The notes under the pieces were generated by a model that made no database searches, was not told the origin of the DNA, and was given only the letters and a program-made list of their open reading frames with translations. Both the position numbers and the translations under genes were made by a program. Shown one piece after another: positions 14,283 to 56,388 of a DNA stretch of 64,000 nt (position 1 is the stretch's first letter; each line of letters opens with the position of its first letter). The stretch comes from a virus (Duplodnaviria; Heunggongvirae; Uroviricota; Caudoviricetes). The stretch spans positions 59,723-123,722 of the IMG/VR virus record IMGVR_UViG_3300044557_000151; one strand, written 5' to 3'.

Positions 14283-15746
14283 ATGGAGTTTTTGAGTGTG
14301 GGGGAGACCTTCAGAGAGTCATTAATTAAGGATAAGGCGTTAGCAGAAGGGCAATTCGTCCTTTCGATGGCAAGCGATCCCGATTTGTATTACGACTACC
14401 CGTTGAAGACGGCAGACTTCCACACCCCTGGTTGGGCACTATACTTTGGTATTCTTGCAACACTTATCAGAGACAAGGGCGTGACCAAGGTTGATAGTAT
14501 TGCCTTTGAAACACAGGTAAAGAGCTTGCCTAAAACAGGGCAGGATGTAGTGGATGATTTTGGTGGGTGGACAACCATCCAAAAAGGTATGCGTGTTGTT
14601 GAAGCGGAAAATGCAGAGACATACTACTCAGAAATTAATCGCTATAAAGTACTTATCAAACTTCTCGACGATGGGTTCCCTATCGAAAAGAAGTGGGGCG
14701 TACTTAAAAACCTCAGTCTTGAAGAGATTAGCGATTATCTCGAAGGAAAACTGAGTGCAGCATTCATTGATACAGAGTCAACAGGTGAAGTTGTCCACGA
14801 TATTAACGATGGATTGGACGAGAACCTGAAGGCGGCTGATGAGGGTATTCACGCTGGATTACCTTTCTCAAGTGTACTGATTAATTCGGTGCAGAATGGT
14901 ATGAGCACAGGGAACATTACGATGTTCGCCGCTCAGTCCGGGTTGGGGAAGTCGTTTATGGCTTTAACCCAGATGTTACCAGTCGCAGTGAGATTCCAAG
15001 AACCAATGATGCTGTTAATCAACGAAGAAGATCGAAAAAAGTGGCAATACGAAATCATTACATGGGCTATCAACAACCTGTTCGATGGTGATTTTAATAA
15101 GTCACGATTCTATCAAGGCCATTTCTCGCCAGAGGAATGGGAGTTGATTAATAAAGGGAGCGATTGGATGAAGACGAATATTGAATCAGGATTGATTCGA
15201 TTTGTTGAATTCCAGTCATTCTCTATGGGTAAGGCAATCAAGTATATCAAGAAGTACAGTAAGCTGTATGAGGTGAAATACTTCCTGATTGATACGCTGA
15301 AACTAGATAACGACACCTCTGATCCGTCTGTAAGCGACAAGTCGTGGTTACAGCTTCAACAGAACATGGTAAAGCTGTATAACGCGATCAAAAAGTCTGC
15401 TGCGGATTGTCACGTTGTCGTCACCTATCAGATGAACAAATCACAGCGCGAACGCTACCTGACTCAAAATGATTTAGGTATGTCCAAGAACGTTGCTGAT
15501 GTGGTCACGTCCCTTATTTTGTTCCGCCTAGCTGGTGCAAACGAAAAGGGTGACGGAAAGACCGCACTTACCGTAAAGACTCAAGATGGGAAGCGTAAGA
15601 AGCTAAATCCCGATAAAGACTACTTTATCCTATTCTGGGACAAGAACCGGCAAGGACAAACCTCTCGACAGGTTGTTGTAGAGGTCGATCGTGGGCGTAA
15701 TATTGTTAAAGATATCGGGCTAACACAAATTTCTCCAGAATATTGA
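14283..15746 (+). CDS. DnaB-like replicative DNA helicase
   Basis: C-terminal RecA-like domain with Walker A FAAQSGLGKSF and Walker B-like LIDTLKLD. The N-terminal domain is helical. Confidence 0.6.
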   Translation: MEFLSVGETFRESLIKDKALAEGQFVLSMASDPDLYYDYPLKTADFHTPGWALYFGILATLIRDKGVTKVDSIAFETQVKSLPKTGQDVVDDFGGWTTIQKGMRVVEAENAETYYSEINRYKVLIKLLDDGFPIEKKWGVLKNLSLEEISDYLEGKLSAAFIDTESTGEVVHDINDGLDENLKAADEGIHAGLPFSSVLINSVQNGMSTGNITMFAAQSGLGKSFMALTQMLPVAVRFQEPMMLLINEEDRKKWQYEIITWAINNLFDGDFNKSRFYQGHFSPEEWELINKGSDWMKTNIESGLIRFVEFQSFSMGKAIKYIKKYSKLYEVKYFLIDTLKLDNDTSDPSVSDKSWLQLQQNMVKLYNAIKKSAADCHVVVTYQMNKSQRERYLTQNDLGMSKNVADVVTSLILFRLAGANEKGDGKTALTVKTQDGKRKKLNPDKDYFILFWDKNRQGQTSRQVVVEVDRGRNIVKDIGLTQISPEY

Positions 15747-15755
15747 AATAAGTAG

Positions 15756-15818
15756 TAGACAAACACTAATGTGTTTGGTAATATAATAGACGTAGGTTAA
15801 ACAAACACTAACGTGTTT
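15756..15818 (+). promoter_or_regulatory. promoter-operator unit driving the tRNA array
   Basis: TAGACA-N17-TAATAT at 15756..15784. The palindrome AAACACTAATGTGTTT lies in the spacer and a second copy, AAACACTAACGTGTTT, at 15803..15818. Confidence 0.6.
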
Positions 15819-15836
15819 ATGAACCGCTTCTATTGT

Positions 15837-15910
15837 GTCTCCGTAGCTCAGATGGATAGAGCATAGATCTTCTAAATCTACGGTCATCGGTTCAAATCCG
15901 ATCGGAGACA
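15837..15910 (+). tRNA. tRNA-Arg(TCT)
   Basis: Manual cloverleaf: acceptor GTCTCCG/CGGAGAC, anticodon loop CTTCTAA, T-arm ATCGG-TTCAAAT-CCGAT. 74 nt. Confidence 0.8.
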
Positions 15911-15994
15911 TTGAGCTGAATTAATTATTCACCTGGTTTGACAACCCTCCAATTTAACTCAAACGTGTGCAGGACTGATCAACCTGTTACATAT

Positions 15995-16065
15995 GCGGAT
16001 ATAGTTCAATGGTAGAATTCTAGTTTTCCAAACTAGCGACGCGAGGCCGGTACTCGTTATCCGCT
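15995..16065 (+). tRNA. tRNA-Trp(CCA)-like with atypical T-loop
   Basis: Acceptor GCGGATA/TATCCGC. Anticodon stem CTAGT/ACTAG with loop TTCCAAA. The T-loop GCCGGTA lacks the conserved TTC. May be a pseudo-tRNA. Confidence 0.4.
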
Positions 16066-16096
16066 TTATATATTTATAAGAAGAGGAGGTTAAAGT

Positions 16097-16780
16097 ATGG
16101 AGATTTGGAAGCCGATGGTTGGATATGAGGGCCTTTACGAAGTGTCTAATGACGGACATGCGCGTTCTGTATCAAGAGAAATTGTGGATAGCGTTGGACG
16201 CAGACGCACCCTAAAAGGCAAGGCAGTCTCGTTCACTATAAATCCCAGAGGATATCTTACCTTTCACGCCACGAAAAACGGTAATAGAAGAACAGCATTC
16301 ATTCATGTTGAAGTGGCGAAGGCGTTTATAGAAAAACCTATTTCTGACGAGCGTTTAGATGTGAATCACAAGGACCATAATAAATTGAATTGCTCAATTG
16401 AGAATCTTGAGTGGTTGACACACGGAGATAATGTGAGAGATCTCAGCATATACCGGGCAAGGACATCAAACACATTAACGAGATTTACAAGGGTCAATGA
16501 TAAGATTGTCAAGCTACCAGATAAGACTTGCGTAGATTGTGGAAAAACCGTTGAGTTCACATCCACTCGTTGTCCTTCATGTGCGGCAAGCGCGTCAATG
16601 ACTTTCACAAACAACGTCGGAGTTATCCCGAAAAATATGCTAGTTTCCGTCCTTCGTGAGAATAATGGGAACTTTGTTAAGGCTGCTGCTGAGTTCGGAA
16701 TTACAGATAACTCCTTGAGAAAGTGGTGTAAGAAATATAATTTGCCATTTCACTCATCGGACTATAAGAAAGCATCATAA
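16097..16780 (+). CDS. HNH homing endonuclease (NUMOD4 + HNH + C-terminal HTH)
   Basis: GYEGLYEVSNDG (NUMOD4 motif), VNHKDHNKLNCSIENLEW (HNH motif) and a C-terminal helix-turn-helix. RBS AAGAGGAGG. Confidence 0.75.
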   Translation: MEIWKPMVGYEGLYEVSNDGHARSVSREIVDSVGRRRTLKGKAVSFTINPRGYLTFHATKNGNRRTAFIHVEVAKAFIEKPISDERLDVNHKDHNKLNCSIENLEWLTHGDNVRDLSIYRARTSNTLTRFTRVNDKIVKLPDKTCVDCGKTVEFTSTRCPSCAASASMTFTNNVGVIPKNMLVSVLRENNGNFVKAAAEFGITDNSLRKWCKKYNLPFHSSDYKKAS

Positions 16781-16798
16781 TGAATTGCATTCGCTTTT

Positions 16799-16882
16799 GC
16801 CGAAGTGGTGGAACTGGAAGACGCGCAGGATTTAGGCTCCTGTGTTGGGAACAACGTGTGGGTTCGAATCCCACCTTCGGCA
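16799..16882 (+). tRNA. tRNA-Leu(TAG)
   Basis: Class II tRNA with long variable arm. Acceptor GCCGAAG/CTTCGGC, anticodon stem CAGGA/TCCTG with loop TTTAGGC, T-arm GTGGG-TTCGAAT-CCCAC. Confidence 0.75.
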
Positions 16883-17120
16883 TCGCCCCTCACTTCACGG
16901 TGGTGAGAGGCGTGAATCAATACTAGTCATGCGGTGTTGGTTCCTCCTTATATATGATATTCGTGCGACCGTCCTGAACGAAGGATTTAAGTCTTATTGC
17001 TTGAATCGGGTTTGAATCCCGACAGCCGCATTCCAGCAAACGTGTATGGCCGCGTGGCGGCGACGAGCGCTGGAATTTAGGTGTGGCACCCTTAACCACA
17101 CCACTCGTTATACTGAAGTG

Positions 17121-17344
17121 GGCAAGAAGACATGTTCTTTAAAGGACGTGATGAATTGCACGTATCTGCGTCAGCAGGTACAACAGCCTTGGTAGCGAAA
17201 ACCAAACTACCAACCTGAACTCAACGTTAAGGCGCGGAACGCGCCGTGGTCAATAACCGTAACCTCTGCATTGTTAGTTTAATGCTAATGGTGTAAGTCA
17301 GCGGTGTTCCCAGAAGCTCGGTCATTTATGACCGAGTAGTTCAC
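17121..17344 (+). mobile_element. ORF-less miniature IS200/IS605 derivative (left end + right end/omega-RNA scaffold)
   Basis: 17121..17160 is nearly identical to the left end of the full IS at 54477. 17245..17344 is nearly identical to the right end at 56190..56287 and ends in the same GAGTAGTTCAC. No ORF between the ends. Confidence 0.6.
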
Positions 17345-17348
17345 GAGT

Positions 17349-17421
17349 GCAACTGTAGCTCAGCGGTGGAGCGGCTGCTCAGAAGAGTAGAGTGTCGCTG
17401 GTTCGATTCCAGCCAGTTGTA
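17349..17421 (+). other. degenerate tRNA-like element (pseudo-tRNA, Phe-like loop CAGAAGA)
   Basis: Good acceptor stem, D-arm and T-arm (GCTGG-TTCGATT-CCAGC) are present. The anticodon stem cannot pair. Begins 4 nt after the mini-IS right end. Confidence 0.35.
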
Positions 17422-17574
17422 GATCCGTGGACTATGTCTAAAATACCTATGTTCTCCTGGTGTCGGTTTGAGGAGACTAACTTTTGGCGGGATGTTCGCA
17501 CATAAGATTGCGAACTTTGTTTCGGATAGTAAAACCGTTAGTCGTGATTGCGAAGTACAAGCTTTCGCGCATAT

Positions 17575-17648
17575 GCTTTCTTAGCTCAGTTGGTTAGAGC
17601 ACCTGACTGTTAATCAGGGTGTCACAGGTTCGAGTCCTGTAGAAAGCG
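17575..17648 (+). tRNA. tRNA-Asn(GTT)
   Basis: Acceptor GCTTTCT/AGAAAGC. Anticodon stem CCTGA/TCAGG with loop CTGTTAA. T-arm ACAGG-TTCGAGT-CCTGT. Confidence 0.85.
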
Positions 17649-17933
17649 TATCTGGATAAATTAAGTTTACGACCAAAAAGCATCCAGAGAAACGCTAACG
17701 TATTGCAGCTGGACTTTAGAGCGATACGAGAGGGCAATCAGCTGTCGGACGGCAGGAAGTTGTCGTAGGTGGATTTGCAACACTTATAGAAAAAGGCTGG
17801 CATGTTCTTGCGCACGAACAAAGCTGGTTAAGATTAAAGTGTGGCGCAGTAGTCGGATAGGTGATTAGTAGTCTGGTGGTCGCAGATGAAAGATCTTACC
17901 GGACTAGGTAGTTCGACTCTACCATCCACCATT

Positions 17934-18006: not shown

Positions 18007-18476
18007 TCAAGCCGAAAGGTTTGAGTTCTTTGCTGTTAATATAACTACCTATCGGATTGGCTAATGACCGCCGATATTTCGGGGATGTAACGGTCTCGAC
18101 AGGATATGCTTAACTGACAAAGCATGTAGAGTGATGACTTAATCATCAACTTGCTAAATGCAAAACAAAACGATTTAGTTGCGGCCTAAGTTTAACTTAG
18201 TATAGCAACACTTACCCCAACGTATGATACCAGATACAAGACGTTGGCTAAACAGGCTGGTGTAGGATGACACTTACTTATTTTCATAAGCTTATCCGAA
18301 ATCTATTGAAAATATGCTCGTCTACTCCGATTGCCCATTTGCGGAAGACGCTAAGACTAATAAGTGAGCTAAGCATGTAGAATTGTCAGATAGAAGCATG
18401 TGTTGGAAACGGGTTCAACTCCCGTCATCTCCATATAGTATGTCGTTACACAATAACATACTAGATATAGTGCAAC

Positions 18477-26400: not shown

Positions 26401-26401
26401 G

Positions 26402-26464
26402 TAGACAAACACTAATGCGTTTAGTATACTAATACTCGTAAGTTAAACAAACACTAATGTGTTT
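26402..26464 (+). promoter_or_regulatory. promoter-operator unit
   Basis: TAGACA-N17-TATACT at 26402..26430. Second palindrome copy AAACACTAATGTGTTT at 26449..26464. Confidence 0.6.
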
Positions 26465-26579
26465 ATTGGAGGGTGCTAGTCGAGAAAACTCGTTACTTTA
26501 GTGACGAGATGAATCAACGTATTGGGCAATCACCGGTGTAGTGTTCTAATAGCGTACCATAGGGTACACGGGAAAGGAG

Positions 26580-27731
26580 ATGATAAATATTGTTTTAAAA
26601 GGCATTAAACTAAGAATATACCCTAGCAAAGAGCAACAGCTAAGTATAAAGCTTAACTTTGGATATAACCGATTTGTTTGGAATCAGATGCTGGGTATGT
26701 TACAAGAAAGATATGCTAATAACCCTAAGCTATCTTTTCCTAGCGCCTTTACTTTAAATAACTTGTTACCAACAATGAAGATAGAATATTCTTGGCTTAA
26801 CGATGCTGAAAGTCGTAGCTTACAAATAACCTGTAAAAACTTAGTTGATGCTTACAAGAAGTTCTTTAAGACCCATAAGGGGTTTCCTAAGTTTAAATCA
26901 AAGAAGTATCCTAAGCAAAGCTACCAAACAAATTCTACAATAAAGCTAAAGGCCAACGAAGTTAAGTTTCCGAAATTAGGCTATATGAAGTTTAAAGGTA
27001 GTAGCAAAAAACTAAATGAGATTACTAAGATTAAGCTAGGAACTATTAAACTTACACCTACTGGTAAATACTATCTTGTACTGATTGCAGAGTGTGAAAA
27101 CCAAGCACTCCCTAAATCAGGAAATCAAGTAGGTATTGATATGGGGTTAGCTGATTTGATGATTACTAGTGACGGTGTAAAGTATCCTACTTTAAGATTT
27201 GACAAGATACTAGCTAAGAAAAAACGTTACTGGGAAAAGCGTTTAGCTCGTAGACGACTTCAAGCTCAAAAAGAGATTGCTTGGGATAAGCATAATAAGG
27301 TATTAAATCCTAGGGAACTTTCCAACTTTAAAAACTATCAGAAAGCAAAGCTAATGGTTGCTAAGTATTCAGAAAAAATAGCTAACCAGCGTAAAAACTA
27401 CCTTCATATGCTTTCAAAACAGCTTGTATCACAATATGATGTGATTAAGATAGAAGATTTGAAAACCAAGAATCTTCTTAAGAATCATAAGTTATCTAGA
27501 GCAATAGCTAATGCAAGTTGGAAAGAACTTAGAAGACAACTAGAGTACAAGTGCTTATGGTATGGGAAACAGTTAGTCACTGTGAACCCTAGAAAAACCT
27601 CACAAATATGTTCTAGTTGTGGCTATGATGACGGTAAGCATACCTTAGATATTAGAGAGTGGACATGTCCCAAGTGTGGTGTTCACCACGACAGGGACAT
27701 TAACGCGGCTATCAATATCTTAAATGCTTAA
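26580..27731 (+). CDS. tnpB: TnpB RNA-guided endonuclease
   Basis: N-terminal KLRIYPSKEQ...FGYNRFVWNQ. RuvC-I GIDMG and RuvC-II IEDLKTK. C-terminal CSSCG...CPKCG zinc finger followed by RuvC-III DRDINAAINIL. Confidence 0.9.
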   Translation: MINIVLKGIKLRIYPSKEQQLSIKLNFGYNRFVWNQMLGMLQERYANNPKLSFPSAFTLNNLLPTMKIEYSWLNDAESRSLQITCKNLVDAYKKFFKTHKGFPKFKSKKYPKQSYQTNSTIKLKANEVKFPKLGYMKFKGSSKKLNEITKIKLGTIKLTPTGKYYLVLIAECENQALPKSGNQVGIDMGLADLMITSDGVKYPTLRFDKILAKKKRYWEKRLARRRLQAQKEIAWDKHNKVLNPRELSNFKNYQKAKLMVAKYSEKIANQRKNYLHMLSKQLVSQYDVIKIEDLKTKNLLKNHKLSRAIANASWKELRRQLEYKCLWYGKQLVTVNPRKTSQICSSCGYDDGKHTLDIREWTCPKCGVHHDRDINAAINILNA

Positions 27732-27854
27732 ATGACTAGTGTGGGCTGGAACAGCCCTTAGTAAATAGTCGTAACCGCTACACCTCATTCAACGAATGAA
27801 GTGCAAGTCAGCGATGTTCCTAGAAGCTCGGTCATTCATGGCCGAGTAGTTCAC
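27732..27854 (+). ncRNA. putative omega-RNA scaffold / IS right end
   Basis: Structured segment 3' of tnpB with hairpins. Conserved with the other two right-end copies (GTTCC-AGAAGCTCGGTCATTCATGGCCGAGTAGTTCAC). Confidence 0.45.
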
Positions 27855-28015
27855 TCAGCAGTCCATCATTCATTCAAAATCTTACCTTTGACCTTATGAA
27901 TGATGGCTACTATGTTCACTACTTTGGAATTCAAGGTGAAGTTGGGATTCCATTCTCTGTCGGCGGTAAGCGGGGCGTTAAATTTAGCGTCTCAAGTATG
28001 GTTTAGGAGGCTATC

Positions 28016-29311: not shown

Positions 29312-30448
29312 GTGGATACCTATCAAGCATACAAAGTCCGTATCTATCCCACTCAATTACAAGCTGATATGATTATGCAATTTATCGGAAATAGTCGATT
29401 CGTGTATAACCAAATGCTTGCCATGCAGGCTGATCGTTACAAGAACGGCGGAAGGTACGTTGGATACATGGCAATGTCCAACCTAGTCAAACCACTCAAA
29501 CAAGAGTACGCATTCCTCAAGCTGTCACCATCTCAATCGCTACAACAGGCGTGTGCGGATTTGAACGCCGCTTTCCAGAACTTCTTTGCTAAGCGCGCAG
29601 ACTATCCACGGTTCCACTCCCGAAAAGGTGCGAAGCAATCTATGCGGGTCATGCAGGCTTGTTCCATCATCGCTTCGGGAGTCAAGCTGCCAAAGCTCGG
29701 TATCATGCGTTTCCGTTATGGATATAGTCTCGACCCGTCACTTAAAATTCGGCAAGTGACCGTCTCGTACACCTCATCTCACAAGTTTTACGCCAGCATC
29801 TTAGTTAAATGCGAAAAACAAGCATTGTCTAAAACTGGTGAACAAGTGGGATTGGATATGGGCGTGGCTGACTTAGCTATCCAGAGCAATGGCAAGAAAA
29901 TTCCAACTCAGAAGCATGACGAGCTGGAACACTCTCTTCACATTTGGCAACGTAAGTTGGCTCGCCGTAGGGAGTTAGCCAAGGCGGAAATCGCTAAATC
30001 CAAGCACTATGACCACACTGAATTGACGCTTGATGACTTCTCCAATTACAACAAGGCGAAAATAATGGTTGCTAAGTTGCATGAGAAGATTGCTAACAGG
30101 CGGAAGGATTACCTACACAAGACGACAACCAAATTGGTGCGGGAATATGACCTTATCGCTATGGAAGATTTGAGGACCAAGAATATGGTCAAGAATCACC
30201 ATTTGGCGAAGTCAATTACCAATCAAGGCTGGAACATGTTTAAAACCATGCTTCAGTACAAGTGCGAGTGGTATGGGAAGACAATAGTGGTGGTAAACCC
30301 GCGGAATACCAGTCGCGTATGTTCTGATTGTGGTGTGGATAGCGGCAAGAAACCACTAGATGTGCGGGAATGGACGTGTCCAGGATGTGGTACATGGCAT
30401 GATCGTGATGTGAATGCAGCACAAAACATTTTGAAATTAGCAGTGTAA
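29312..30448 (+). CDS. tnpB: TnpB RNA-guided endonuclease
   Basis: KVRIYPTQLQ...GNSRFVYNQ. RuvC-I GLDMG, RuvC-II MEDLRTK. Zinc finger CSDCG...CPGCG. RuvC-III DRDVNAAQNIL. Confidence 0.9.
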   Translation: MDTYQAYKVRIYPTQLQADMIMQFIGNSRFVYNQMLAMQADRYKNGGRYVGYMAMSNLVKPLKQEYAFLKLSPSQSLQQACADLNAAFQNFFAKRADYPRFHSRKGAKQSMRVMQACSIIASGVKLPKLGIMRFRYGYSLDPSLKIRQVTVSYTSSHKFYASILVKCEKQALSKTGEQVGLDMGVADLAIQSNGKKIPTQKHDELEHSLHIWQRKLARRRELAKAEIAKSKHYDHTELTLDDFSNYNKAKIMVAKLHEKIANRRKDYLHKTTTKLVREYDLIAMEDLRTKNMVKNHHLAKSITNQGWNMFKTMLQYKCEWYGKTIVVVNPRNTSRVCSDCGVDSGKKPLDVREWTCPGCGTWHDRDVNAAQNILKLAV

Positions 30449-30568
30449 CTGATAAACAAGGGCAGGGACTGTCCGTGGTAATAGAGTCGAACCTCTTGAG
30501 GTGCTCATGTGTAACACACAAAGTTCGATGCTCCCAGAAGCCTGTCATTTTAATGACGGGTGGTTCAC
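30449..30568 (+). ncRNA. putative omega-RNA scaffold / IS right end of the second tnpB element
   Basis: Hairpin-rich segment ending in GGTGGTTCAC. Architecture parallels the other right ends (CCCAGAAGC + hairpin + GTTCAC). Confidence 0.45.
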
Positions 30569-30616
30569 TTCCGCTACGTTGGGTATGACGTCAAAGATCA
30601 TTATAACGCTTTGGGC

Positions 30617-30808
30617 GAAGTAGACGGTTACGTCATCTCATGGAATAACGAAAAGGGACGGTAGATAATGAAATTTGAACCATATCAACATGTACAACGT
30701 ATGGGCGTTGACGAAGTAGACGGTTACGTCATCTCATGGAATAACGAAAAGGGACGGTAGATAATGAAATTTGAACCATATCAACATGTACAACGTATGG
30801 GCGTTGAC
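30617..30808 (+). repeat. perfect 96-bp tandem duplication spanning RBS and start of the RNA ligase gene
   Basis: 30617..30712 equals 30713..30808 exactly. A 12-bp junction GAAGTAGACGGT recurs at 30809. Copy 1 creates a decoy 30-codon ORF (30668..30760). Confidence 0.9.
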
Positions 30809-31696
30809 GAAGTAGACGGTATCCTGGATGGTAATGTTGTCATTCAACCGAAGATTGATGGAACAAACGCATCAATCTGGTTAGACCAAAATGGAACCTT
30901 GGGATTTGGAAGTCGTCGGCGAAAGCTGACTTTAGAAAAGGACAACGCGGGGTTCATGACCTTCTTCACCTCTGAAATGGCTCAAGGCGACGCCGCCAAA
31001 TTACAAGAGTATCTCGAAGATAACCCAGATTACACCATTTACGGCGAATGGTTAGTCCAACATGTCGTTCATTACAAAGATAACGTTTACCATCAACTGT
31101 TCATTTTCGACGTCTACGACAATGCGAATGAACGATATCTCAACATCGAAGAATATCAAGATGACCTTCAAGAGTTGGGCATGTCGTATGTGGTTGTGAT
31201 CCCGGCGATTTACAAAGGTAAAGCAACAAACGAGATGATTGTAAAGCTCGCTAAGGATAACCACTATCTTCTGGAAAAAGACCAGGTCGGTGAAGGCGTT
31301 GTAGTTAAACGATATGACTTCGTGAATCGATATGGGCGTACCACTTGGGGTAAATACGTGCTTGCAGATTTCAAGAAGCGCAAACATGATGGACGTAATT
31401 ACTCTCAGGATGTTGATGGTATTGGGAACAGTTATGCAGAACCTATTGCTAAATTCATTACACCAGCGTTTGTCGAAAAAGAGTTCATTAAGTTTAAAGA
31501 GCGATTGGATCACCCGTTTAGTGGAAAAGATATTCCGGCATTGCTAGGGACCGTGTATCACGAATTTGTTTCAGAAGAGACGTGGCATTTCTTGAAAGAA
31601 CTTGGGAAGAGTCCGGTTGTCAACTTTGGAACTGTACAGCGCGAATCGTACAAACAAATTAAGCGGTGTTTGCCTGTCTTATTCGGCCAAGCATAG
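30764..31696 (+). CDS. ATP-dependent RNA ligase-like nucleotidyltransferase
   Basis: Motif I KIDGTNA (ligase/capping-enzyme lysine adenylyltransferase). 310 aa. RtcB lies nearby. Confidence 0.5.
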   Translation: MKFEPYQHVQRMGVDEVDGILDGNVVIQPKIDGTNASIWLDQNGTLGFGSRRRKLTLEKDNAGFMTFFTSEMAQGDAAKLQEYLEDNPDYTIYGEWLVQHVVHYKDNVYHQLFIFDVYDNANERYLNIEEYQDDLQELGMSYVVVIPAIYKGKATNEMIVKLAKDNHYLLEKDQVGEGVVVKRYDFVNRYGRTTWGKYVLADFKKRKHDGRNYSQDVDGIGNSYAEPIAKFITPAFVEKEFIKFKERLDHPFSGKDIPALLGTVYHEFVSEETWHFLKELGKSPVVNFGTVQRESYKQIKRCLPVLFGQA

Positions 31697-32412: not shown

Positions 32413-33603
32413 TTGGAAATCAAAGGTAAATACGGCGTTGCAAAAGTAATGACCGAGAATATTGAGCAAACCGCTCAAGAACAGTTGAAAACGTTACTGG
32501 ATCAGCCATACATGAAGGGCAACGATGTTCGAATCATGCCGGATGTTCACGCTGGTAAAGGCGCAACAATTGGCACTAGCATCAAGTTAAACAACGACTT
32601 CATTTGCCCAAATACGGTTTCGGTCGACCTGGGCTGTGGAATGCACGTATTCAAGCTTGACATCGATCATGTAGACTTTGAAAAGTTGGATCAGTTAATC
32701 AATAACGAAGTACCATCTGGTTTCAACGTTTACGAAAATCCGATTCGTAAATTCAGACAAATCAATTATACTCGCATTACTCATCTGAAAAACTACGATC
32801 ACATCTTGAACAGTATTGGAACTCTTGGTGGTGGGAACCATTTCATTGAAATCGATCAGGATACCGATGGTGTTTACTACCTGGTAATTCATTCAGGCTC
32901 ACGCAACTTGGGCGTTCAAGTTGCCAACTATTATCAACGCTTAGCAATTTCGAATCAGTCAAAGAATGTTGAGTTACGCGACGCTGTGATTGCAGCATGT
33001 AAAGAGGTTGGACAAGAGCGTCAGATTGAGGGTTTGTTGAATACGTTGAAACAAACGAATCCAATCATTCCAGACGAGTTGGCTCCTGTCAGCGGCCAAG
33101 ATGCTGAAGACTACTTATACGACGTATCGATTGCACAAGAGTTTGCAGCGTTGAATCGTTTGACGATGGCCGAAACAATTATCTACGGCATGAATTGGCA
33201 AGTTGATTCAGACTTTGATTCAATTCACAACTACATTGATATCGATAATCGAATTATTCGCAAAGGTGCTACCGATGCCTCGTTGGGGAAACAATTGGTT
33301 ATCCCATTGAATATGCGTGATGGCTCGATTATTGCAACTGGCATGGGTAACTCTGACTGGAACTACTCAGCTCCACATGGTGCAGGTCGCGTAATGTCTC
33401 GCAAGAAGGCGTTTGAAACAGTTGCCATGAACGACTTTACCAAATCGATGGAAGGTATCTACTCGACTTCTGTTGTCAAAGAAACGATTGATGAATCACC
33501 GTTCGCATACAAGCCTGCACAAGAGATTATTGATGCAATCAGTGAGAAGACTGTCCACATCGATAAGGTGATTAAACCGGTTTACAACTACAAGGCACAT
33601 TAA
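32413..33603 (+). CDS. rtcB: RtcB-family RNA 3'-phosphate ligase
   Basis: MPDVHAGKGATIG, GGGNHFIEID and APHGAGR motifs. Start uncertain: TTG at 32413 or ATG at 32449. Confidence 0.85.
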   Translation: MEIKGKYGVAKVMTENIEQTAQEQLKTLLDQPYMKGNDVRIMPDVHAGKGATIGTSIKLNNDFICPNTVSVDLGCGMHVFKLDIDHVDFEKLDQLINNEVPSGFNVYENPIRKFRQINYTRITHLKNYDHILNSIGTLGGGNHFIEIDQDTDGVYYLVIHSGSRNLGVQVANYYQRLAISNQSKNVELRDAVIAACKEVGQERQIEGLLNTLKQTNPIIPDELAPVSGQDAEDYLYDVSIAQEFAALNRLTMAETIIYGMNWQVDSDFDSIHNYIDIDNRIIRKGATDASLGKQLVIPLNMRDGSIIATGMGNSDWNYSAPHGAGRVMSRKKAFETVAMNDFTKSMEGIYSTSVVKETIDESPFAYKPAQEIIDAISEKTVHIDKVIKPVYNYKAH

Positions 33604-39493: not shown

Positions 39494-39804
39494 GCGAAAC
39501 CAAATATGATGTATTTGTTCGTCTAATGAGTAATTACCTTGTAGAGAAGATTCAGCTTGATAGTATAACGCGAGACCCCCACCACATCGATATTCAACGT
39601 GAAGCAGATTCGTGGTTGGAAGAATACAACCATGCGGTTGATAACGCGGAACGTCAGGTTGGATGCAAGGAATGTCGCCGAGGTGGAAGCTTAGACGTGG
39701 CAATCAAAATGGTTGAAAAGCTTACTTCGCAACTAATGTCTGCAATCAAATTCTGTCCATATTGCGGACGAAGAATCAACATAAAACTTTCTGACTTATA
39801 CTAG
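39490..39804 (+). CDS. small zinc-ribbon protein (paralog family)
   Basis: MSETKYDVF... CKECRRGG ... FCPYCGRRIN. Stop codon overlaps the -35 element of the next promoter. Confidence 0.45.
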   Translation: MSETKYDVFVRLMSNYLVEKIQLDSITRDPHHIDIQREADSWLEEYNHAVDNAERQVGCKECRRGGSLDVAIKMVEKLTSQLMSAIKFCPYCGRRINIKLSDLY

Positions 39805-39887
39805 ACAAACACTAATGTGTTTGGTAATATAATAAGAGTAGTCAAACACTAATGTGTTTTTAAGGCCGACTGCATCGGCCTTTTCTT
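39802..39887 (+). promoter_or_regulatory. promoter-operator unit with leader hairpin and intrinsic terminator
   Basis: TAGACA-N17-TAATAT at 39802..39830. RNA-level palindrome AAACACTAATGTGTTT at 39844..39859. Terminator hairpin AAGGCCGA-CTGCA-TCGGCCTT + TTTTCTT at 39862..39887. Confidence 0.55.
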
Positions 39888-50292: not shown

Positions 50293-50460
50293 ATGTACAA
50301 ACTAGTTTTATATAACGATATTGGTATTGAGGATATCTATTTTCAAGATTACCAAACGTTCTTTGCGGCTCAGATTCAGGTATTCAAAATCTATTTTGCT
50401 CAACACGTCTGGTATCGGGTGGTCAAGGTGAACCCAAATGCAATTGCCTTTAACTTTTAG
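50293..50460 (+). CDS. hypothetical small protein
   Basis: 55-aa ORF below the track cutoff. ATG after TAGGAGGTTGAC. Confidence 0.3.
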   Translation: MYKLVLYNDIGIEDIYFQDYQTFFAAQIQVFKIYFAQHVWYRVVKVNPNAIAFNF

Positions 50461-50461
50461 G

Positions 50462-50558
50462 TAGACAAACACTAATGTGTTTAGTATACTAATCAGTGTG
50501 ATATAGACAAACACTAATGTGTTTTGGCTGACGTGAAATCACGCCAGTCTTTTTGTTT
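50462..50558 (+). promoter_or_regulatory. promoter-operator unit with leader hairpin and intrinsic terminator
   Basis: TAGACA-N17-TATACT at 50462..50490. Second TAGACAAACACTAATGTGTTTT at 50503..50524. Terminator GGCTGACGTG-AAAT-CACGCCAGTC + TTTTTGTTT at 50526..50558. Confidence 0.55.
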
Positions 50559-54462: not shown

Positions 54463-54575
54463 TTTTATCATGTGCAGGAAAGAAGACACGTTCTTTAAAG
54501 GACGTGATGAATTGCCTTCTTTTTAGCGCCAAAGGCGCTACACATGGTACGAAATCGTGTGGTATAATAAGCTAT

Positions 54576-55019
54576 ATGAAAGACACTAATAGACTTACGT
54601 ATGGTAGAACTTCTGTCTACAATCTAAATTACCACATCATCTGGGGAACTAAATACCGTAACCGGGTTCTGAAAGGAAATGTTGAGGTTACGCTCAAGCA
54701 AATTATGTATGAAATCGCAGAGCAATATGGTTTTAGCATCGACCACATGGAAATTGGTCAGGATGACCATATTCACTTGCTGGTGAGTGCACCGCCAAAA
54801 CTATCAGTTACCAATATTGTGCGATGGCTAAAAGGCATTTCAGCGCGCCAGCTATTCGTCGCGTGTCCGGAGCTACAGCGAAGTTACTGGAAACATGCAG
54901 GACGCCACTTATGGTCGCCCAGTTATTACGTAGAAAGTATTGGCACAACTAATCAGAATGCAGTCGCTAAGTACATTGATGACCAAAGGTTGAAGGAGGT
55001 GAAGATTAATGACAATTAA
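54576..55019 (+). CDS. tnpA: IS200-like Y1 (HUH) transposase TnpA
   Basis: YHIIWGTKYR and HIHLLVSAPP (HuH) motifs plus a downstream Tyr. ATG 54576 (track frame from 54504). Confidence 0.85.
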   Translation: MKDTNRLTYGRTSVYNLNYHIIWGTKYRNRVLKGNVEVTLKQIMYEIAEQYGFSIDHMEIGQDDHIHLLVSAPPKLSVTNIVRWLKGISARQLFVACPELQRSYWKHAGRHLWSPSYYVESIGTTNQNAVAKYIDDQRLKEVKINDN

Positions 55020-56148
55020 AGCTTATAAACTTAGGATCTACCCAAATGAGGCTCAAAAGCTTCAAATGGAAAAGAACTTTGGTATGTGTCGATTTGTATG
55101 GAACCAGCTTCTCGCTATGCAGAATGCGCGCTACAAGAACGGTGGTGACTACGTCAACGAGTTTGGCATGAATTACCTATTTAAGCCCCTGAAAAAAGAA
55201 TACCAATGGCTTAAAGAAGCAGACTCAACCAGCTTAATAGCTGTGAGCCACAATCTGCACTTAGCATTTAAAAACTTTTTCAAAAAGCATGAAGGGTATC
55301 CGAAGTTTAAGACTAAGCGGTTCACCCGCCCTGCATATCGTTCTAACGCAGTTAACCACAATATCGTTCTTATGGACGAGCAACATATTCGGCTGCCAAA
55401 ACTTGGATCAATAGCATTTCGATCTGGACAGTTACCAAGGGGTAAAGTTAAAACTGCAACAGTTACTAGAAGTCCCGCTGGTAAATACTATGTACTTGTG
55501 ACTACGGAAGTCGAAATAGAGAAATGGAACCCAACAGGCGCTAGTGTCGGCTTGGATATGGGAGTCGCTGACCTTGTAATCACTAGTGATGGTATGAAGT
55601 TTGCGACCAAACGGTTTGATAAAGCTCTTGCCAAAAAGAAACACTACTGGGAGAAACGATTGGCCCGTAGGCGCGCCTTAGCTCAAAAAGAAATTGCCTG
55701 GGATAAACACCTCAAGGTAGAATCGCCACGTCAGTTATCTGACTTCAAGAATTACATGAAGGCTAAAGAAATGGTGGCGAAATACAGTGAAAAAGTGTCT
55801 AATCAACGTCACGATTACCTTCAAAAGATCAGTACTGAGCTCGTTTCAGAATATGATGTGATTAAATTAGAAGACCTGAAAACCAAGGGCCTGATGAAGA
55901 ATCACAAACTGTCACGAGCAATTGCAAATCAGTCGTGGCGTGAATTACGTCTGATGTTGGAATACAAAGCAGCTTGGTATGGTAAGAGTATCATTGCCGT
56001 GTCTCCGTATAAGACCTCACAACGTTGTTCAGTATGTGGCTACGATGATGGCAAACATGAGCTAGATATCCGCGAATGGACTTGCCCACAATGCCATACT
56101 CATCACGATCGTGACATAAATGCCGCAAAGAACATTCTAGTCGCATAA
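55009..56148 (+). CDS. tnpB: TnpB RNA-guided endonuclease
   Basis: KLRIYPNEAQ...FGMCRFVWNQ. RuvC-I GLDMG, RuvC-II LEDLKTK. Zinc finger CSVCG...CPQCH. RuvC-III DRDINAAKNIL. Confidence 0.9.
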   Translation: MTIKAYKLRIYPNEAQKLQMEKNFGMCRFVWNQLLAMQNARYKNGGDYVNEFGMNYLFKPLKKEYQWLKEADSTSLIAVSHNLHLAFKNFFKKHEGYPKFKTKRFTRPAYRSNAVNHNIVLMDEQHIRLPKLGSIAFRSGQLPRGKVKTATVTRSPAGKYYVLVTTEVEIEKWNPTGASVGLDMGVADLVITSDGMKFATKRFDKALAKKKHYWEKRLARRRALAQKEIAWDKHLKVESPRQLSDFKNYMKAKEMVAKYSEKVSNQRHDYLQKISTELVSEYDVIKLEDLKTKGLMKNHKLSRAIANQSWRELRLMLEYKAAWYGKSIIAVSPYKTSQRCSVCGYDDGKHELDIREWTCPQCHTHHDRDINAAKNILVA

Positions 56149-56287
56149 AAAGCAAAGACCCAAATGGTCTATCGGCACGGGACGTGCCTTGGCTAATAAC
56201 CGTAACCTCTGCATTGTTAGTTTAATGCTAATGGTGTAAGTCGGCGGCGTTCCCAGAAGCTCGGTCATTCATGGCCGAGTAGTTCAC
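56149..56287 (+). ncRNA. putative omega-RNA scaffold / IS right end
   Basis: Nearly identical to 17245..17344. Hairpins GGCACGGGACGTGCC and CTCGGTCATTCATGGCCGAG. Confidence 0.45.
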
Positions 56288-56298
56288 GAATTCAATAG

Positions 56299-56356
56299 TA
56301 GACAAACACTAATGTGTTTGGTATACTATTAGACGTAGACAAATACTAATGTGTTT
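56299..56356 (+). promoter_or_regulatory. promoter-operator unit
   Basis: TAGACA-N17-TATACT at 56299..56327. Second palindrome copy AAATACTAATGTGTTT at 56341..56356. Confidence 0.6.
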
Positions 56357-56388
56357 TTGTTTAACAAGATGTTAAAGGGGAGATTAGT

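What the first reader, a model, noticed from the sequence alone, without database searches (positions are those of the whole stretch)
17121..17421. ORF-less 224-bp IS200/IS605 derivative (left end + omega-RNA-bearing right end) inserted in the tRNA array, abutting a degenerate tRNA
Positions 17121..17160 reproduce the left end of the complete IS605-type element at 54477, and 17245..17344 reproduce its right end almost base for base, ending in the same GAGTAGTTCAC. There is no transposase or tnpB between them. In IS200/IS605 elements the TnpB omega-RNA scaffold is encoded in exactly this right-end segment, and the guide is the roughly 16 nt of flank that follows. Here that flank is the 5' end of a tRNA-like sequence (17349..17421) whose anticodon stem can no longer pair. 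This gives an orphan omega-RNA gene that the three tnpB genes in the same genome could load in trans, with a guide matching tRNA-array sequence. Alternatively it is a PATE-like miniature element mobilised by the resident TnpA.
Basis: partly seen in the sequence, partly recalled or inferred. Interest (0 to 1): 0.75.

Follow-up and report, generated by a model that had tools for sequence, protein, structure and literature searches.

The report
Mobile gene-less IS605 guide-RNA mini-element
A 224-233 bp gene-less miniature IS200/IS605 transposon, carrying an intact TnpB guide-RNA (omega-RNA) scaffold, sits in a Lactobacillaceae phage's tRNA array and occupies a different site in sister phages, so it is a real and recently mobile member of an already described kind of element.

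Summary
Window 17121-17344 is the left end plus the omega-RNA-bearing right end of the resident IS605 (54469-56287), with no ORF between them.

It is not a local deletion remnant. The same ORF-less architecture occurs in Lactobacillaceae chromosomes, metagenomes and other phages. That architecture is LE hairpin, promoter position, 'TAGCGAAAACCAA' hairpin, covarying scaffold, RE hairpin, then GTTCAC.

The scaffold structure is strongly supported: 28 pairs, 97% paired, 13 with compensatory changes. All 28 pairs are intact in the mini.

Sister phages about 95-97% identical settle mobility. Two carry the same mini (5 mismatches in 224) at another site beside tRNA-Arg. The window is empty there (TTAT|TCACC...). 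One sister lacks the mini at the window's site and reads TTAT|GAGTGCAACTG..., which is TAM plus an exact protospacer.

TAM = TTAT in 3 of 3 empty alleles. The phage encodes an intact TnpA and three TnpBs with catalytic residues intact.

Expression and trans-loading were not tested. The element's -10 box is weak (TACAAC), and RNase P processing of the adjacent tRNA-like gene would trim the guide to 4 nt.

That tRNA-like gene is a full cloverleaf with a closed 6-bp/4-nt 'anticodon' arm. It does not have an unpairable stem.

PATEs that encode omega-RNAs are already described, so this is a new member of a known kind.

The parts
17108..17111 (+). TTAT, the transposon-adjacent motif (TAM) and insertion target on the left side
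   Evidence: All three empty alleles found (site A in L121, site B in the window, L122 and L123, and the tnpB#1 site in L118) have TTAT immediately 5' of the sequence that follows the RE in the filled allele.
17112..17120 (+). 9-nt junction linker (ACTGAAGTG) between the TAM and the shared element core; origin unresolved
   Evidence: The 97.8%-identical copy in L121 and L124 has a different linker here (TCACCATATAA). Homology between the copies starts at 17121.
17121..17160 (+). Left end (LE), with its subterminal hairpin at 17131-17150
   Evidence: A 26-nt core is identical to the LE of the full IS. The hairpin is weakly hit by the RE-hairpin part of model R1, as are the LE hairpins of the other two LE-bearing elements in the window (the full IS and the tnpB#1 element).
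17156..17184 (+). Family-conserved promoter position: -35 TTGCAC, 17-nt spacer, -10 TACAAC (weakened; relatives have TACAAT, TATAAT or TATACT)
   Evidence: Read directly from the sequence and compared with L104-L107, L002, L080 and L081. It is not called by the consensus scan.
17191..17211 (+). 5' hairpin module GGTAGCGAAAACCAAACTACC, the hallmark of the ORF-less lineage and the probable start of the transcript
   Evidence: TAGCGAAAACCAA[A/G]CTA lies 7-8 nt after the -10 box in every mini and orphan recovered.
17220..17344 (+). Omega-RNA scaffold and right end: stem A 17231-17245, long-range stems, variable hairpin, RE hairpin 17317-17336, terminal GTTCAC 17339-17344
   Evidence: CM R1 scores it at 125 bits, E = 5e-30, over the full model length. 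The structure is 97.2% paired with 13 compensatory pairs. The mini breaks 0 of 28 pairs.
17345..17364 (+). Predicted guide (the flank 3' of the RE): GAGTGCAACTGTAGCTCAGC, overlapping the 5' end of the tRNA-like gene
   Evidence: Assigned by position. The identical sequence preceded by TTAT is present in the mini-less allele of sister phage L121 (12605-12640).
17349..17422 (+). tRNA-like gene: full cloverleaf with canonical T-arm, and an 'anticodon' arm that forms a 6-bp stem with a 4-nt loop
   Evidence: ARAGORN reports a 2-base anticodon. Rfam tRNA scores 46.5 bits with an 8-nt loop. L121 has A for G at 17381, turning a G.U pair into A-U.
54469..56287 (+). Resident autonomous IS605: TAM TTAT 54465-54468; tnpA 54576-55019; tnpB 55009-56148; omega-RNA/RE 56163-56287. 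It is the likely trans source of TnpA and of the cognate TnpB.
   Evidence: Pfam hits Y1_Tnp, HTH_OrfB_IS605, OrfB_IS605 and Cas12f1-like_TNB. TnpA has the HUH motif and Tyr. TnpB matches ISDra2 TnpB at E = 1e-61 with D-E-D and the zinc finger conserved. CM hit.
15925..15948 (+). Empty 'site B': TTAT|TCACCTGGTTTGACAACCCT. Sister phages L121 and L124 carry the same mini here, so this is a TAM plus protospacer for their copy's guide.
26580..27854 (+). tnpB#1 with its omega-RNA/RE (27732-27854); guide TCAGCAGTCCATCATT (27855-27870)
   Evidence: Sister phage L118 lacks this element and reads TTAT|TCAGCAGTCCATCATT.
29312..30568 (+). tnpB#2 with its omega-RNA/RE (30449-30568); more divergent, with no recognisable LE

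Best explanation
Window 17112/17121-17344 is a non-autonomous, PATE-like miniature IS200/IS605 element. It consists of an LE hairpin, an internal promoter position, a short 5' hairpin, a complete TnpB omega-RNA scaffold and the RE.

It belongs to an old ORF-less lineage that circulates in Lactobacillaceae chromosomes and phages. In this phage its two ends have been matched, probably by recombination, to the resident autonomous IS605.

It inserts 3' of TTAT, presumably moved in trans by the resident TnpA. It has moved recently, because sister phages carry it at another TTAT in the same tRNA array.

Its transcript would be an omega-RNA whose guide is the right flank (GAGTGCAACTG...). If loaded in trans by the cognate TnpB (55009-56148), it would cut the mini-less allele (TTAT plus the same sequence). 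That could happen after excision or in a co-infecting sister phage, and repair would copy the mini back in, which is homing.

Shown: the anatomy, family membership, RNA-structure conservation, mobility, the TAM, the existence of a matching target, and intact TnpA and TnpB.

Inferred: transcription, TnpB loading, cleavage and homing.
For: End identity to the resident IS is established.

The element is a mosaic. The middle segment 17161-17250 is 84/90 identical to the Lacticaseibacillus suibinensis mini but only 53/92 to the resident IS. The RE segment is 89/94 identical to the resident IS.

The same ORF-less architecture appears in the 8-kb flanks of 2 bacterial species (3 copies), in at least 6 metagenome contigs, and in IMG/VR and GenBank phages.

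The structure is supported by 28 pairs, 97.2% paired, 13 pairs with double changes, 0/500 shuffles reaching the observed value, and slid controls of 29-46%. ORF-less copies keep the structure as well as tnpB-linked ones (97.3% against 97.0%). They show 26 extra pair types among themselves, including stems outside the TnpA hairpin.

The CM scores the mini at 125 bits, equal to the tnpB-linked copies.

Mobility: L121 and L124 carry the same mini (5/224 mismatches) at site B. The window, L122 and L123 are empty there. L121 lacks the mini at site A and has TTAT plus at least 32 nt identical to the mini's right flank.

TTAT is found in 3/3 empty alleles, including the tnpB#1 site in L118.

TnpA has HUH and Tyr. 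All three TnpBs keep D-E-D and the zinc finger, and TnpB#3 matches ISDra2 TnpB at E = 1e-61.

The concept is already in the literature: PATEs often encode omega-RNAs that are acted on in trans (PMC10055086).
Against: There are no expression data.

The element's -10 box is TACAAC, lacking the conserved final T. No sigma-70-like site is called in 16700-17700 on the + strand, so transcription may depend on read-through of the tRNA array.

The guide overlaps a tRNA-like gene with intact acceptor and T arms. RNase P cleavage at 17349 would leave a 4-nt guide.

The left junction is not textbook. The 9-11 nt between TTAT and the shared core differ between the two copies. In L121 they start with a 5-nt copy of the target flank (TCACC).

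At site A the window also lacks 288 nt that L121 has, so the event there was not a simple clean insertion.

No curated omega-RNA model matched.
Confidence: 0.62

Rival explanations
1. The element is a mobile mini, but the RNA has no role. It is only a TnpA substrate, and the omega-RNA-like part is retained as hitch-hiking sequence or recent inheritance. No functional guide RNA is made at this locus.
For: The -10 box is weak (TACAAC) and no promoter is called. Adjacent tRNA-like processing would truncate the guide. TnpA-type transposition needs only the subterminal hairpins and cleavage sites. LE-less copies show a decaying RE hairpin (L015 has 2 broken pairs; 3-521 has a 1-nt deletion).
Against: Thirteen ORF-less copies that have diverged to 55-89% identity keep 97.3% of the pairs. 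They show compensatory changes in stems A-C, which lie well outside the TnpA hairpin. Nearly all relatives keep a good promoter exactly upstream of the scaffold. A cognate, catalytically intact TnpB is in the same genome.
Confidence: 0.27
2. The element is an exapted promoter or leader for the downstream tRNA(-like) genes. It is kept because it drives or shapes transcription and processing of the array, and the scaffold is simply a leader removed by RNase P.
For: In Lactobacillus phage 3-521 and in IMG/VR contig L015, an LE-less unit with a strong promoter ends at GTTCAC exactly at +1 of tRNA-Gly. It is conserved at that position in both. 3-521 has no close cognate TnpB, only a 38%-identical homologue. 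In the window the RE ends 4 nt before the tRNA-like gene.
Against: In the window lineage the element is polymorphic and sits at different sites. Site B lies downstream of tRNA-Arg and about 66 nt before the next tRNA, so its position relative to tRNAs is not fixed. Its promoter is the weakest in the family. Both sites are explained by a TTAT in the spacer.
Confidence: 0.06
3. The element is an in-situ deletion remnant of a full-length IS605 copy that once sat here. It would have no independent history or function.
For: Its ends are nearly identical to the resident full-length IS. A genuine remnant of this type does exist elsewhere: Lb338-1 L005:5111-5235 keeps the tnpB 3' end.
Against: The 90-nt middle is unrelated to the resident IS (53/92) but is 93% identical to an ORF-less element in a Lacticaseibacillus chromosome. 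The same 224 bp lie at a different site in sister phages. No relative shows a full-length IS at this site.
Confidence: 0.03

Closest known systems
PATE-like non-autonomous IS200/IS605 elements of Geobacillus stearothermophilus (Meers et al. 2023, PMC10055086)
   Same: Both have an LE and RE like those of a resident IS605 family, no protein-coding gene, and predicted mobilisation in trans by TnpA. [quoted passage not shown]
   Different: This one is carried by a phage, in a tRNA array. The lineage has a conserved internal promoter position and a 5' hairpin module. A natural positional polymorphism with reciprocal TAM-plus-protospacer targets is documented between sister phages. The TAM is TTAT.
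ISDra2 / IS608-type TnpB-omega-RNA systems (PDB 8bf8, 8exa, 8h1j)
   Same: TnpB#3 aligns end to end with ISDra2 TnpB (E = 1e-61), with D-E-D and the zinc finger conserved. The scaffold lies at the 3' end and RE, the guide is the flank, and the TAM equals the TnpA target.
   Different: The scaffold here is separated from any tnpB. No sequence or CM-level match to a curated omega-RNA family could be made, because nothing in Rfam release 15 matched this region at E <= 10. The TAM is TTAT rather than TTGAT or TTAC (those two are recalled from memory).
Free-standing homing endonucleases in phage tRNA regions, such as T4 SegB (cited in review PMC13565253)
   Same: It is a selfish element in a phage tRNA array. 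Its predicted nuclease target is the element-less allele of a related phage. The window also has an HNH gene in the array (16097-16780).
   Different: Specificity would be RNA-guided and supplied by a gene-less cassette, with the nuclease encoded about 38 kb away. Homing has not been demonstrated here.
Stand-alone omega-RNA copies reported for IscB/TnpB loci (Altae-Tran et al. 2021; recalled from memory, not re-read here)
   Same: These are guide-RNA genes without an adjacent nuclease gene that are presumed to act in trans.
   Different: The present copies keep transposon ends and are demonstrably mobile.

Membership tests
IS200/IS605 non-autonomous (PATE-like) element | LE and RE with subterminal hairpins matching those of an autonomous family member | tested here: met
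   The LE core is identical over 26 nt and the RE is 89/94 identical to the resident IS605. The LE and RE hairpins are recognised by the same CM segment.
IS200/IS605 non-autonomous (PATE-like) element | No protein-coding gene between the ends | tested here: met
   The longest overlapping ORF is 49 aa and starts outside the element.
IS200/IS605 non-autonomous (PATE-like) element | Insertion 3' of a fixed tetra- or pentanucleotide (TAM), with the RE abutting unaltered flank | tested here: met
   TTAT immediately precedes the RE flank in 3/3 empty alleles.
IS200/IS605 non-autonomous (PATE-like) element | Precise left junction (TAM directly joined to a constant LE terminus, no target duplication) | tested here: inconclusive
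   The 9-11 nt after TTAT differ between the two copies. The L121 copy begins with a 5-nt repeat of the target flank.
IS200/IS605 non-autonomous (PATE-like) element | Copies at different genomic sites (mobility) | tested here: met
   The same 224 bp are at site A in the window and at site B in L121 and L124. Empty alleles exist at both sites. Family members have unrelated flanks in bacteria.
IS200/IS605 non-autonomous (PATE-like) element | A compatible Y1 (HUH) TnpA available in trans, with actual excision or integration by it | not testable with these tools
   TnpA is present with HUH and a catalytic Tyr. Its activity on this element needs an excision assay.
TnpB omega-RNA | Conserved secondary structure shared with scaffolds encoded at the 3' end of tnpB genes | tested here: met
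   The 19-sequence alignment includes 6 tnpB-linked copies. It has 28 pairs, 97.2% paired and 13 compensatory pairs. The mini scores 125 bits.
TnpB omega-RNA | Guide formed by the flank 3' of the RE, with a TAM-flanked matching target existing in nature | tested here: met
   L121 reads TTAT followed by a sequence identical to window 17345-17376.
TnpB omega-RNA | Transcribed, and bound by a TnpB that then cleaves DNA | not testable with these tools
   No RNA data are available. The family promoter position is present but its -10 box is weakened.
TnpB omega-RNA | Match to a curated or published omega-RNA covariance model | tested here: not met
   An Rfam 15 scan of 16880-17480 at E <= 10 returned only the tRNA. 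No curated model matched this region, so this tests availability more than identity.
Canonical tRNA (for the abutting gene 17349-17422) | Cloverleaf with a 5-bp anticodon stem and a 7-nt loop | tested here: not met
   The acceptor, D and T arms are present. The anticodon arm folds as a 6-bp stem with a 4-nt loop, or as a 4-bp stem with an 8-nt loop.
Nuclease-dead TnpB derivatives (TldR-like) | Loss of RuvC catalytic residues | tested here: not met
   The DMG, EDL and HDRD motifs are invariant in all three TnpBs, so they are predicted to be active nucleases.

The most novel reading that the evidence does not exclude
Gene-less omega-RNA cassettes may act as trans-loaded, RNA-guided homing or exclusion modules between co-infecting Lactobacillaceae phages. 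This would be an RNA-guided counterpart of T4 SegB in tRNA arrays. Each sister phage's mini encodes a guide that matches a TTAT-flanked site in the other phage. LE-less, promoter-driven copies fixed at the +1 of tRNA-Gly, as in phage 3-521 and L015, would then be domesticated versions kept for inter-phage competition or tRNA-operon expression.
Probability: 0.2. Interest if true: 0.7.

Novelty: new member of a known kind. Interest (0 to 1): 0.45.

Why it matters
This phage population offers a natural, sequence-resolved system for testing TnpB homing. It has an autonomous IS605, two tnpB-only elements and a gene-less guide cassette. Sister genomes carry filled and empty alleles at defined TTAT sites.

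That makes two questions directly testable. One is whether TnpB can be programmed in trans by PATE-borne omega-RNAs. The other is whether 'non-restorative' homing into co-infecting genomes occurs, which a 2026 review still treats as theoretical for phages (PMC13565253).

The data also supply a TAM (TTAT) and a covariation-supported scaffold for a compact 379-aa TnpB clade. The kind of element itself was already described, so the advance is incremental.

Tried and rejected
Searches that led nowhere:
- Rfam (gathering and E <= 10) gave no omega-RNA family, only the tRNA.
- Megablast of the tRNA-array region and of the full IS against GenBank phages gave only short tRNA hits for the array region and no match at all for the full IS.
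- An IMG/VR protein-anchored search with the primase found no relatives.
- One IMG/VR pattern scan was wasted on a mistyped RE pattern.
- An exact metagenome search for the tRNA-like gene found nothing.
- Exact-product look-ups for the DnaB-like protein (14283-15746), TnpA and TnpB#3 found nothing on record.

Ideas considered and rejected:
- Assembly chimera at a repeat. An independent contig is identical across the left junction.
- In-situ deletion remnant. The mosaic middle and the different site in sister phages argue against it.
- TTCAC as the TAM. It would require an RE ending in an extra TCAC, unlike every other copy.
- An orthologous RE|tRNA junction shared by the window and L015/3-521. 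The abutted tRNAs are not homologous. The L015 tRNA-Gly matches window 15995-16066 instead.
- Inferring the TAM from left-flank alignment alone. This was ambiguous until empty alleles were found.

Full report
**Context.** All long ORFs in the window lie on the + strand. The window carries a tRNA array with a tmRNA, an HNH gene, RtcB, a PolIII-alpha-type polymerase and other phage replication genes. Every database match to the element comes from Lactobacillaceae phages, plasmids or chromosomes. The window is therefore part of a large Lactobacillaceae phage. An identical primase is on record from a 123,722-bp JGI contig.

**Observation.**
- A 26-nt LE core (17134-17159 = 54490-54515) and a 34-nt RE block (17252-17285 = 56195-56228) are exact. 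Each occurs only twice in the window, with 0 expected by chance.
- Over 17251-17344 the mini matches the full IS at 89/94, and both end in GAGTAGTTCAC.
- No ORF of more than 49 aa overlaps the element.
- The full element at 54469-56287 has a Y1 tnpA with HUH (HIH) and SYYVES Tyr motifs, and a 379-aa tnpB.
- Two further tnpB genes lie at 26580-27731 and 29312-30448.
- All three TnpBs keep the RuvC D-E-D triad and the zinc finger. TnpB#3 aligns end to end with ISDra2 TnpB at E = 1e-61.
- An independent Logan assembly is identical across 15759-17281, so the junction is not an assembly artefact.

**A family, not a one-off remnant.** Between its ends the mini carries about 90 nt that do not align with the resident IS (53/92). 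That stretch is 93% identical (84/90) to an ORF-less element in the Lacticaseibacillus suibinensis chromosome.

Pattern scans recovered the same architecture in several places:
- Secundilactobacillus hailunensis, two copies with different flanks.
- Several metagenome contigs.
- IMG/VR phage contigs L002, L080, L081 and L015.
- Cultured Lactobacillus phage 3-521.

The shared plan is as follows:
- an LE hairpin;
- a sigma-70-type promoter (TTGCCT or TTGACA, 17 nt, then TATAAT, TACAAT or TATACT);
- 7-8 nt;
- the hairpin TAGCGAAAACCAA[A/G]CTA;
- a linker;
- a covarying GGNNCG-gaa-CGNNCC stem;
- long-range stems and a variable hairpin;
- the RE hairpin;
- GTAGTTCAC.

In the window copy the -10 box is TACAAC, and the consensus scan calls no + strand promoter.

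The window mini is a mosaic. Its core comes from the ORF-less lineage, while its LE and its last 94 nt, including the variable hairpin, match the resident IS. This fits recombination with the autonomous partner, or selection for compatibility with it.

**RNA structure.** The alignment holds 19 scaffolds, 6 downstream of tnpB genes and 13 ORF-less. It supports 28 base pairs with 97.2% of cells paired and 13 pairs with changes on both sides. None of 500 shuffles reached the observed values, and slid controls gave 29-46% pairing.

ORF-less copies conserve the structure as well as tnpB-linked ones (97.3% against 97.0%). The window mini breaks none of the 28 pairs.

A covariance model built from this alignment finds exactly four full-length hits in the window. 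Three follow the tnpB genes, and the fourth is the mini at 125 bits. Nothing else scores above 15 bits. The training sequences match the model by construction, so this is a consistency check rather than an independent test.

Compensatory changes in stems that lie outside the TnpA hairpin argue that the RNA, and not only the DNA end, is under selection in the gene-less lineage. No Rfam family matches.

**Mobility and TAM.** Logan contigs from other samples are about 95-97% identical to the window.

Site B, beside tRNA-Arg:
- L121 (SRR13377823) and L124 (SRR16642459) carry the same mini, with 5 mismatches in 224, just 3' of tRNA-Arg(tct). They read ...TTAT|tcaccatataaGGCAAG...GTTCAC|TCACCTGGTTTG.
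- The window (15925-15948), L122 and L123 are empty there and read TTAT|TCACCTGGTTTG.

Site A, the window's site:
- L121 has no mini at the window's site.
- It reads TTAT|GAGTGCAACTGTAGCTCAGCGG..., identical for at least 32 nt to the mini's right flank.

The tnpB#1 site:
- L118 (ERR13111410) lacks the tnpB#1 element.
- It reads TTAT|TCAGCAGTCCATCATT, an exact match to that element's guide.

TTAT precedes the flank in all three empty alleles, so TAM = TTAT. The mini is a recently mobile, polymorphic element. Each phage's mini guide has a perfect TAM-flanked target in its sister phage.

**What is not clean.**
- The 9-11 nt between TTAT and the shared core differ between the two copies. In L121 they begin with a 5-nt repeat of the target flank.
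- At site A the window lacks 288 nt that are present in L121.
- At the tnpB#1 site the window lacks 154 nt to the left of the TAM.

I cannot explain these left-side irregularities. They may reflect use of an alternative TTAT, deletions adjacent to the ends, or repair events.

**The neighbouring tRNA-like gene.** It is a complete cloverleaf with a canonical T-arm. Its anticodon arm closes into a 6-bp stem with a 4-nt loop. Rfam aligns it with an 8-nt loop. The sister phage has an A for the G at 17381, which turns a G.U pair in that stem into A-U. It is therefore non-decoding but not randomly decayed, and the claim that its stem cannot pair is wrong. Because its acceptor and T arms are intact, RNase P would probably cut at 17349 and leave a 4-nt guide. 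That counts against guide function at this particular locus, unless TnpB binds the RNA first.

**Comparison and novelty.** Meers et al. 2023 already report PATE-like IS605 derivatives. They state that these often encode omega-RNAs needing TnpB in trans. A 2026 review treats homing into co-infecting phages as theoretical. This is a new, well-documented member of that known kind, found in a phage.

**Side observations.** LE-less, promoter-driven scaffolds are fused to the +1 of tRNA-Gly in phage 3-521 and in L015. Tandem LE-less units occur in L108. These leave room for a more novel, domesticated role, which I rate at about 0.2 probability.

Noticed in passing
L114:3305-3501 (Lactobacillus phage 3-521, MK504444.1 13596-13790) and L015:1306-1447: An LE-less unit with a strong promoter (TTGACA-17-TACTAT in 3-521), the TAGCG hairpin and the omega scaffold ends at GTTCAC exactly at +1 of tRNA-Gly(UCC), followed by tRNA-Asn. 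It is conserved at this position in two diverged phages. 3-521 has only this one scaffold and only a 38%-identical TnpB homologue.
   Followed up: partly
L108:15-324: Two LE-less omega-RNA-type units sit in direct tandem, separated by 14 nt, upstream of an SSB gene in a metagenome contig.
   Followed up: no
window 17112-17120; L121:11634-11644: The linker between the TTAT TAM and the shared LE core differs between two 97.8%-identical copies (ACTGAAGTG against TCACCATATAA). The L121 linker starts with a 5-nt duplicate of the target flank (TCACC). L121 also has an extra TAT relative to the empty allele in L123.
   Followed up: partly
window 17111/17112 against L121:12321-12608: Sister phage L121 has 288 nt here, containing a tRNA-like sequence that ARAGORN does not call. 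The stretch is bounded by TTAT on both sides, and the window lacks it exactly where the mini sits.
   Followed up: partly
window 26473/26474 against L118:7201-7354: Next to the LE of the tnpB#1 element, the window lacks 154 nt present in L118. These are the start of a 101-aa gene together with the TTAT TAM. The element has therefore truncated a gene and lost its own TAM.
   Followed up: partly
window 17349-17422: This tRNA-like gene has intact acceptor, D and T arms but a closed 'anticodon' hairpin (6 bp with loop AGAA). The stem is kept by a G.U to A-U change in the sister phage. A tRNA-like sequence with a similar CAGAAGAG loop lies at L015:1148-1226.
   Followed up: partly
window 16925-17103: Two degenerate tRNA-like remnants lie here. 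One is an acceptor-like helix with a GGGTTTGAATCCC T-arm around a long insert (16929-17031). The other is a hairpin, GGTGTGG-N9-CCACACC (17081-17103), that resembles the T-arm of the L015 tRNA-like gene. Rfam does not call either.
   Followed up: no
window 30616-30820: A perfect 96-bp tandem duplication (2.1 copies, 100% identity) begins 48 nt downstream of the tnpB#2 right end.
   Followed up: partly
window 18081-18436: A phage-encoded tmRNA (Rfam 112.9 bits; tag AKQNDLVAA) lies inside the tRNA array, and an RtcB RNA ligase gene lies at 32413-33603.
   Followed up: no
window 15755-15820, 26401-26466, 39799-39859, 50455-50524, 56288-56359: A repeated motif of about 65 nt (TAGACAAACACTAATGTGTTT...TATACT/TATAAT...AACAAACACTAATGTGTTT) looks like a phage promoter/operator cassette. 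One copy immediately follows the full IS and another precedes tnpB#1.
   Followed up: no
L118:9015-10283: Sister phage ERR13111410 carries a different, 422-aa TnpB-like gene (Cas12f1-like_TNB) between sequences matching window 28640 and 28960. The window has no tnpB at that position, so this is a further TnpB presence/absence polymorphism.
   Followed up: no
L112:1737-1990: An ORF-less unit is flanked by a 24-26 nt inverted repeat (GATCATGTTCAACTATAAATAGTAT / ATACTATTTATAGTTGAACATGAT). Its predicted guide is therefore complementary to sequence just upstream of its own promoter.
   Followed up: no
L005:5111-5235 (Lactobacillus phage Lb338-1): A second omega-type scaffold has no tnpB but still keeps the last codons of one (AATGCTTAA), and its RE hairpin is degenerate. 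This is a genuine deletion remnant, in contrast to the TAGCG-type minis.
   Followed up: partly
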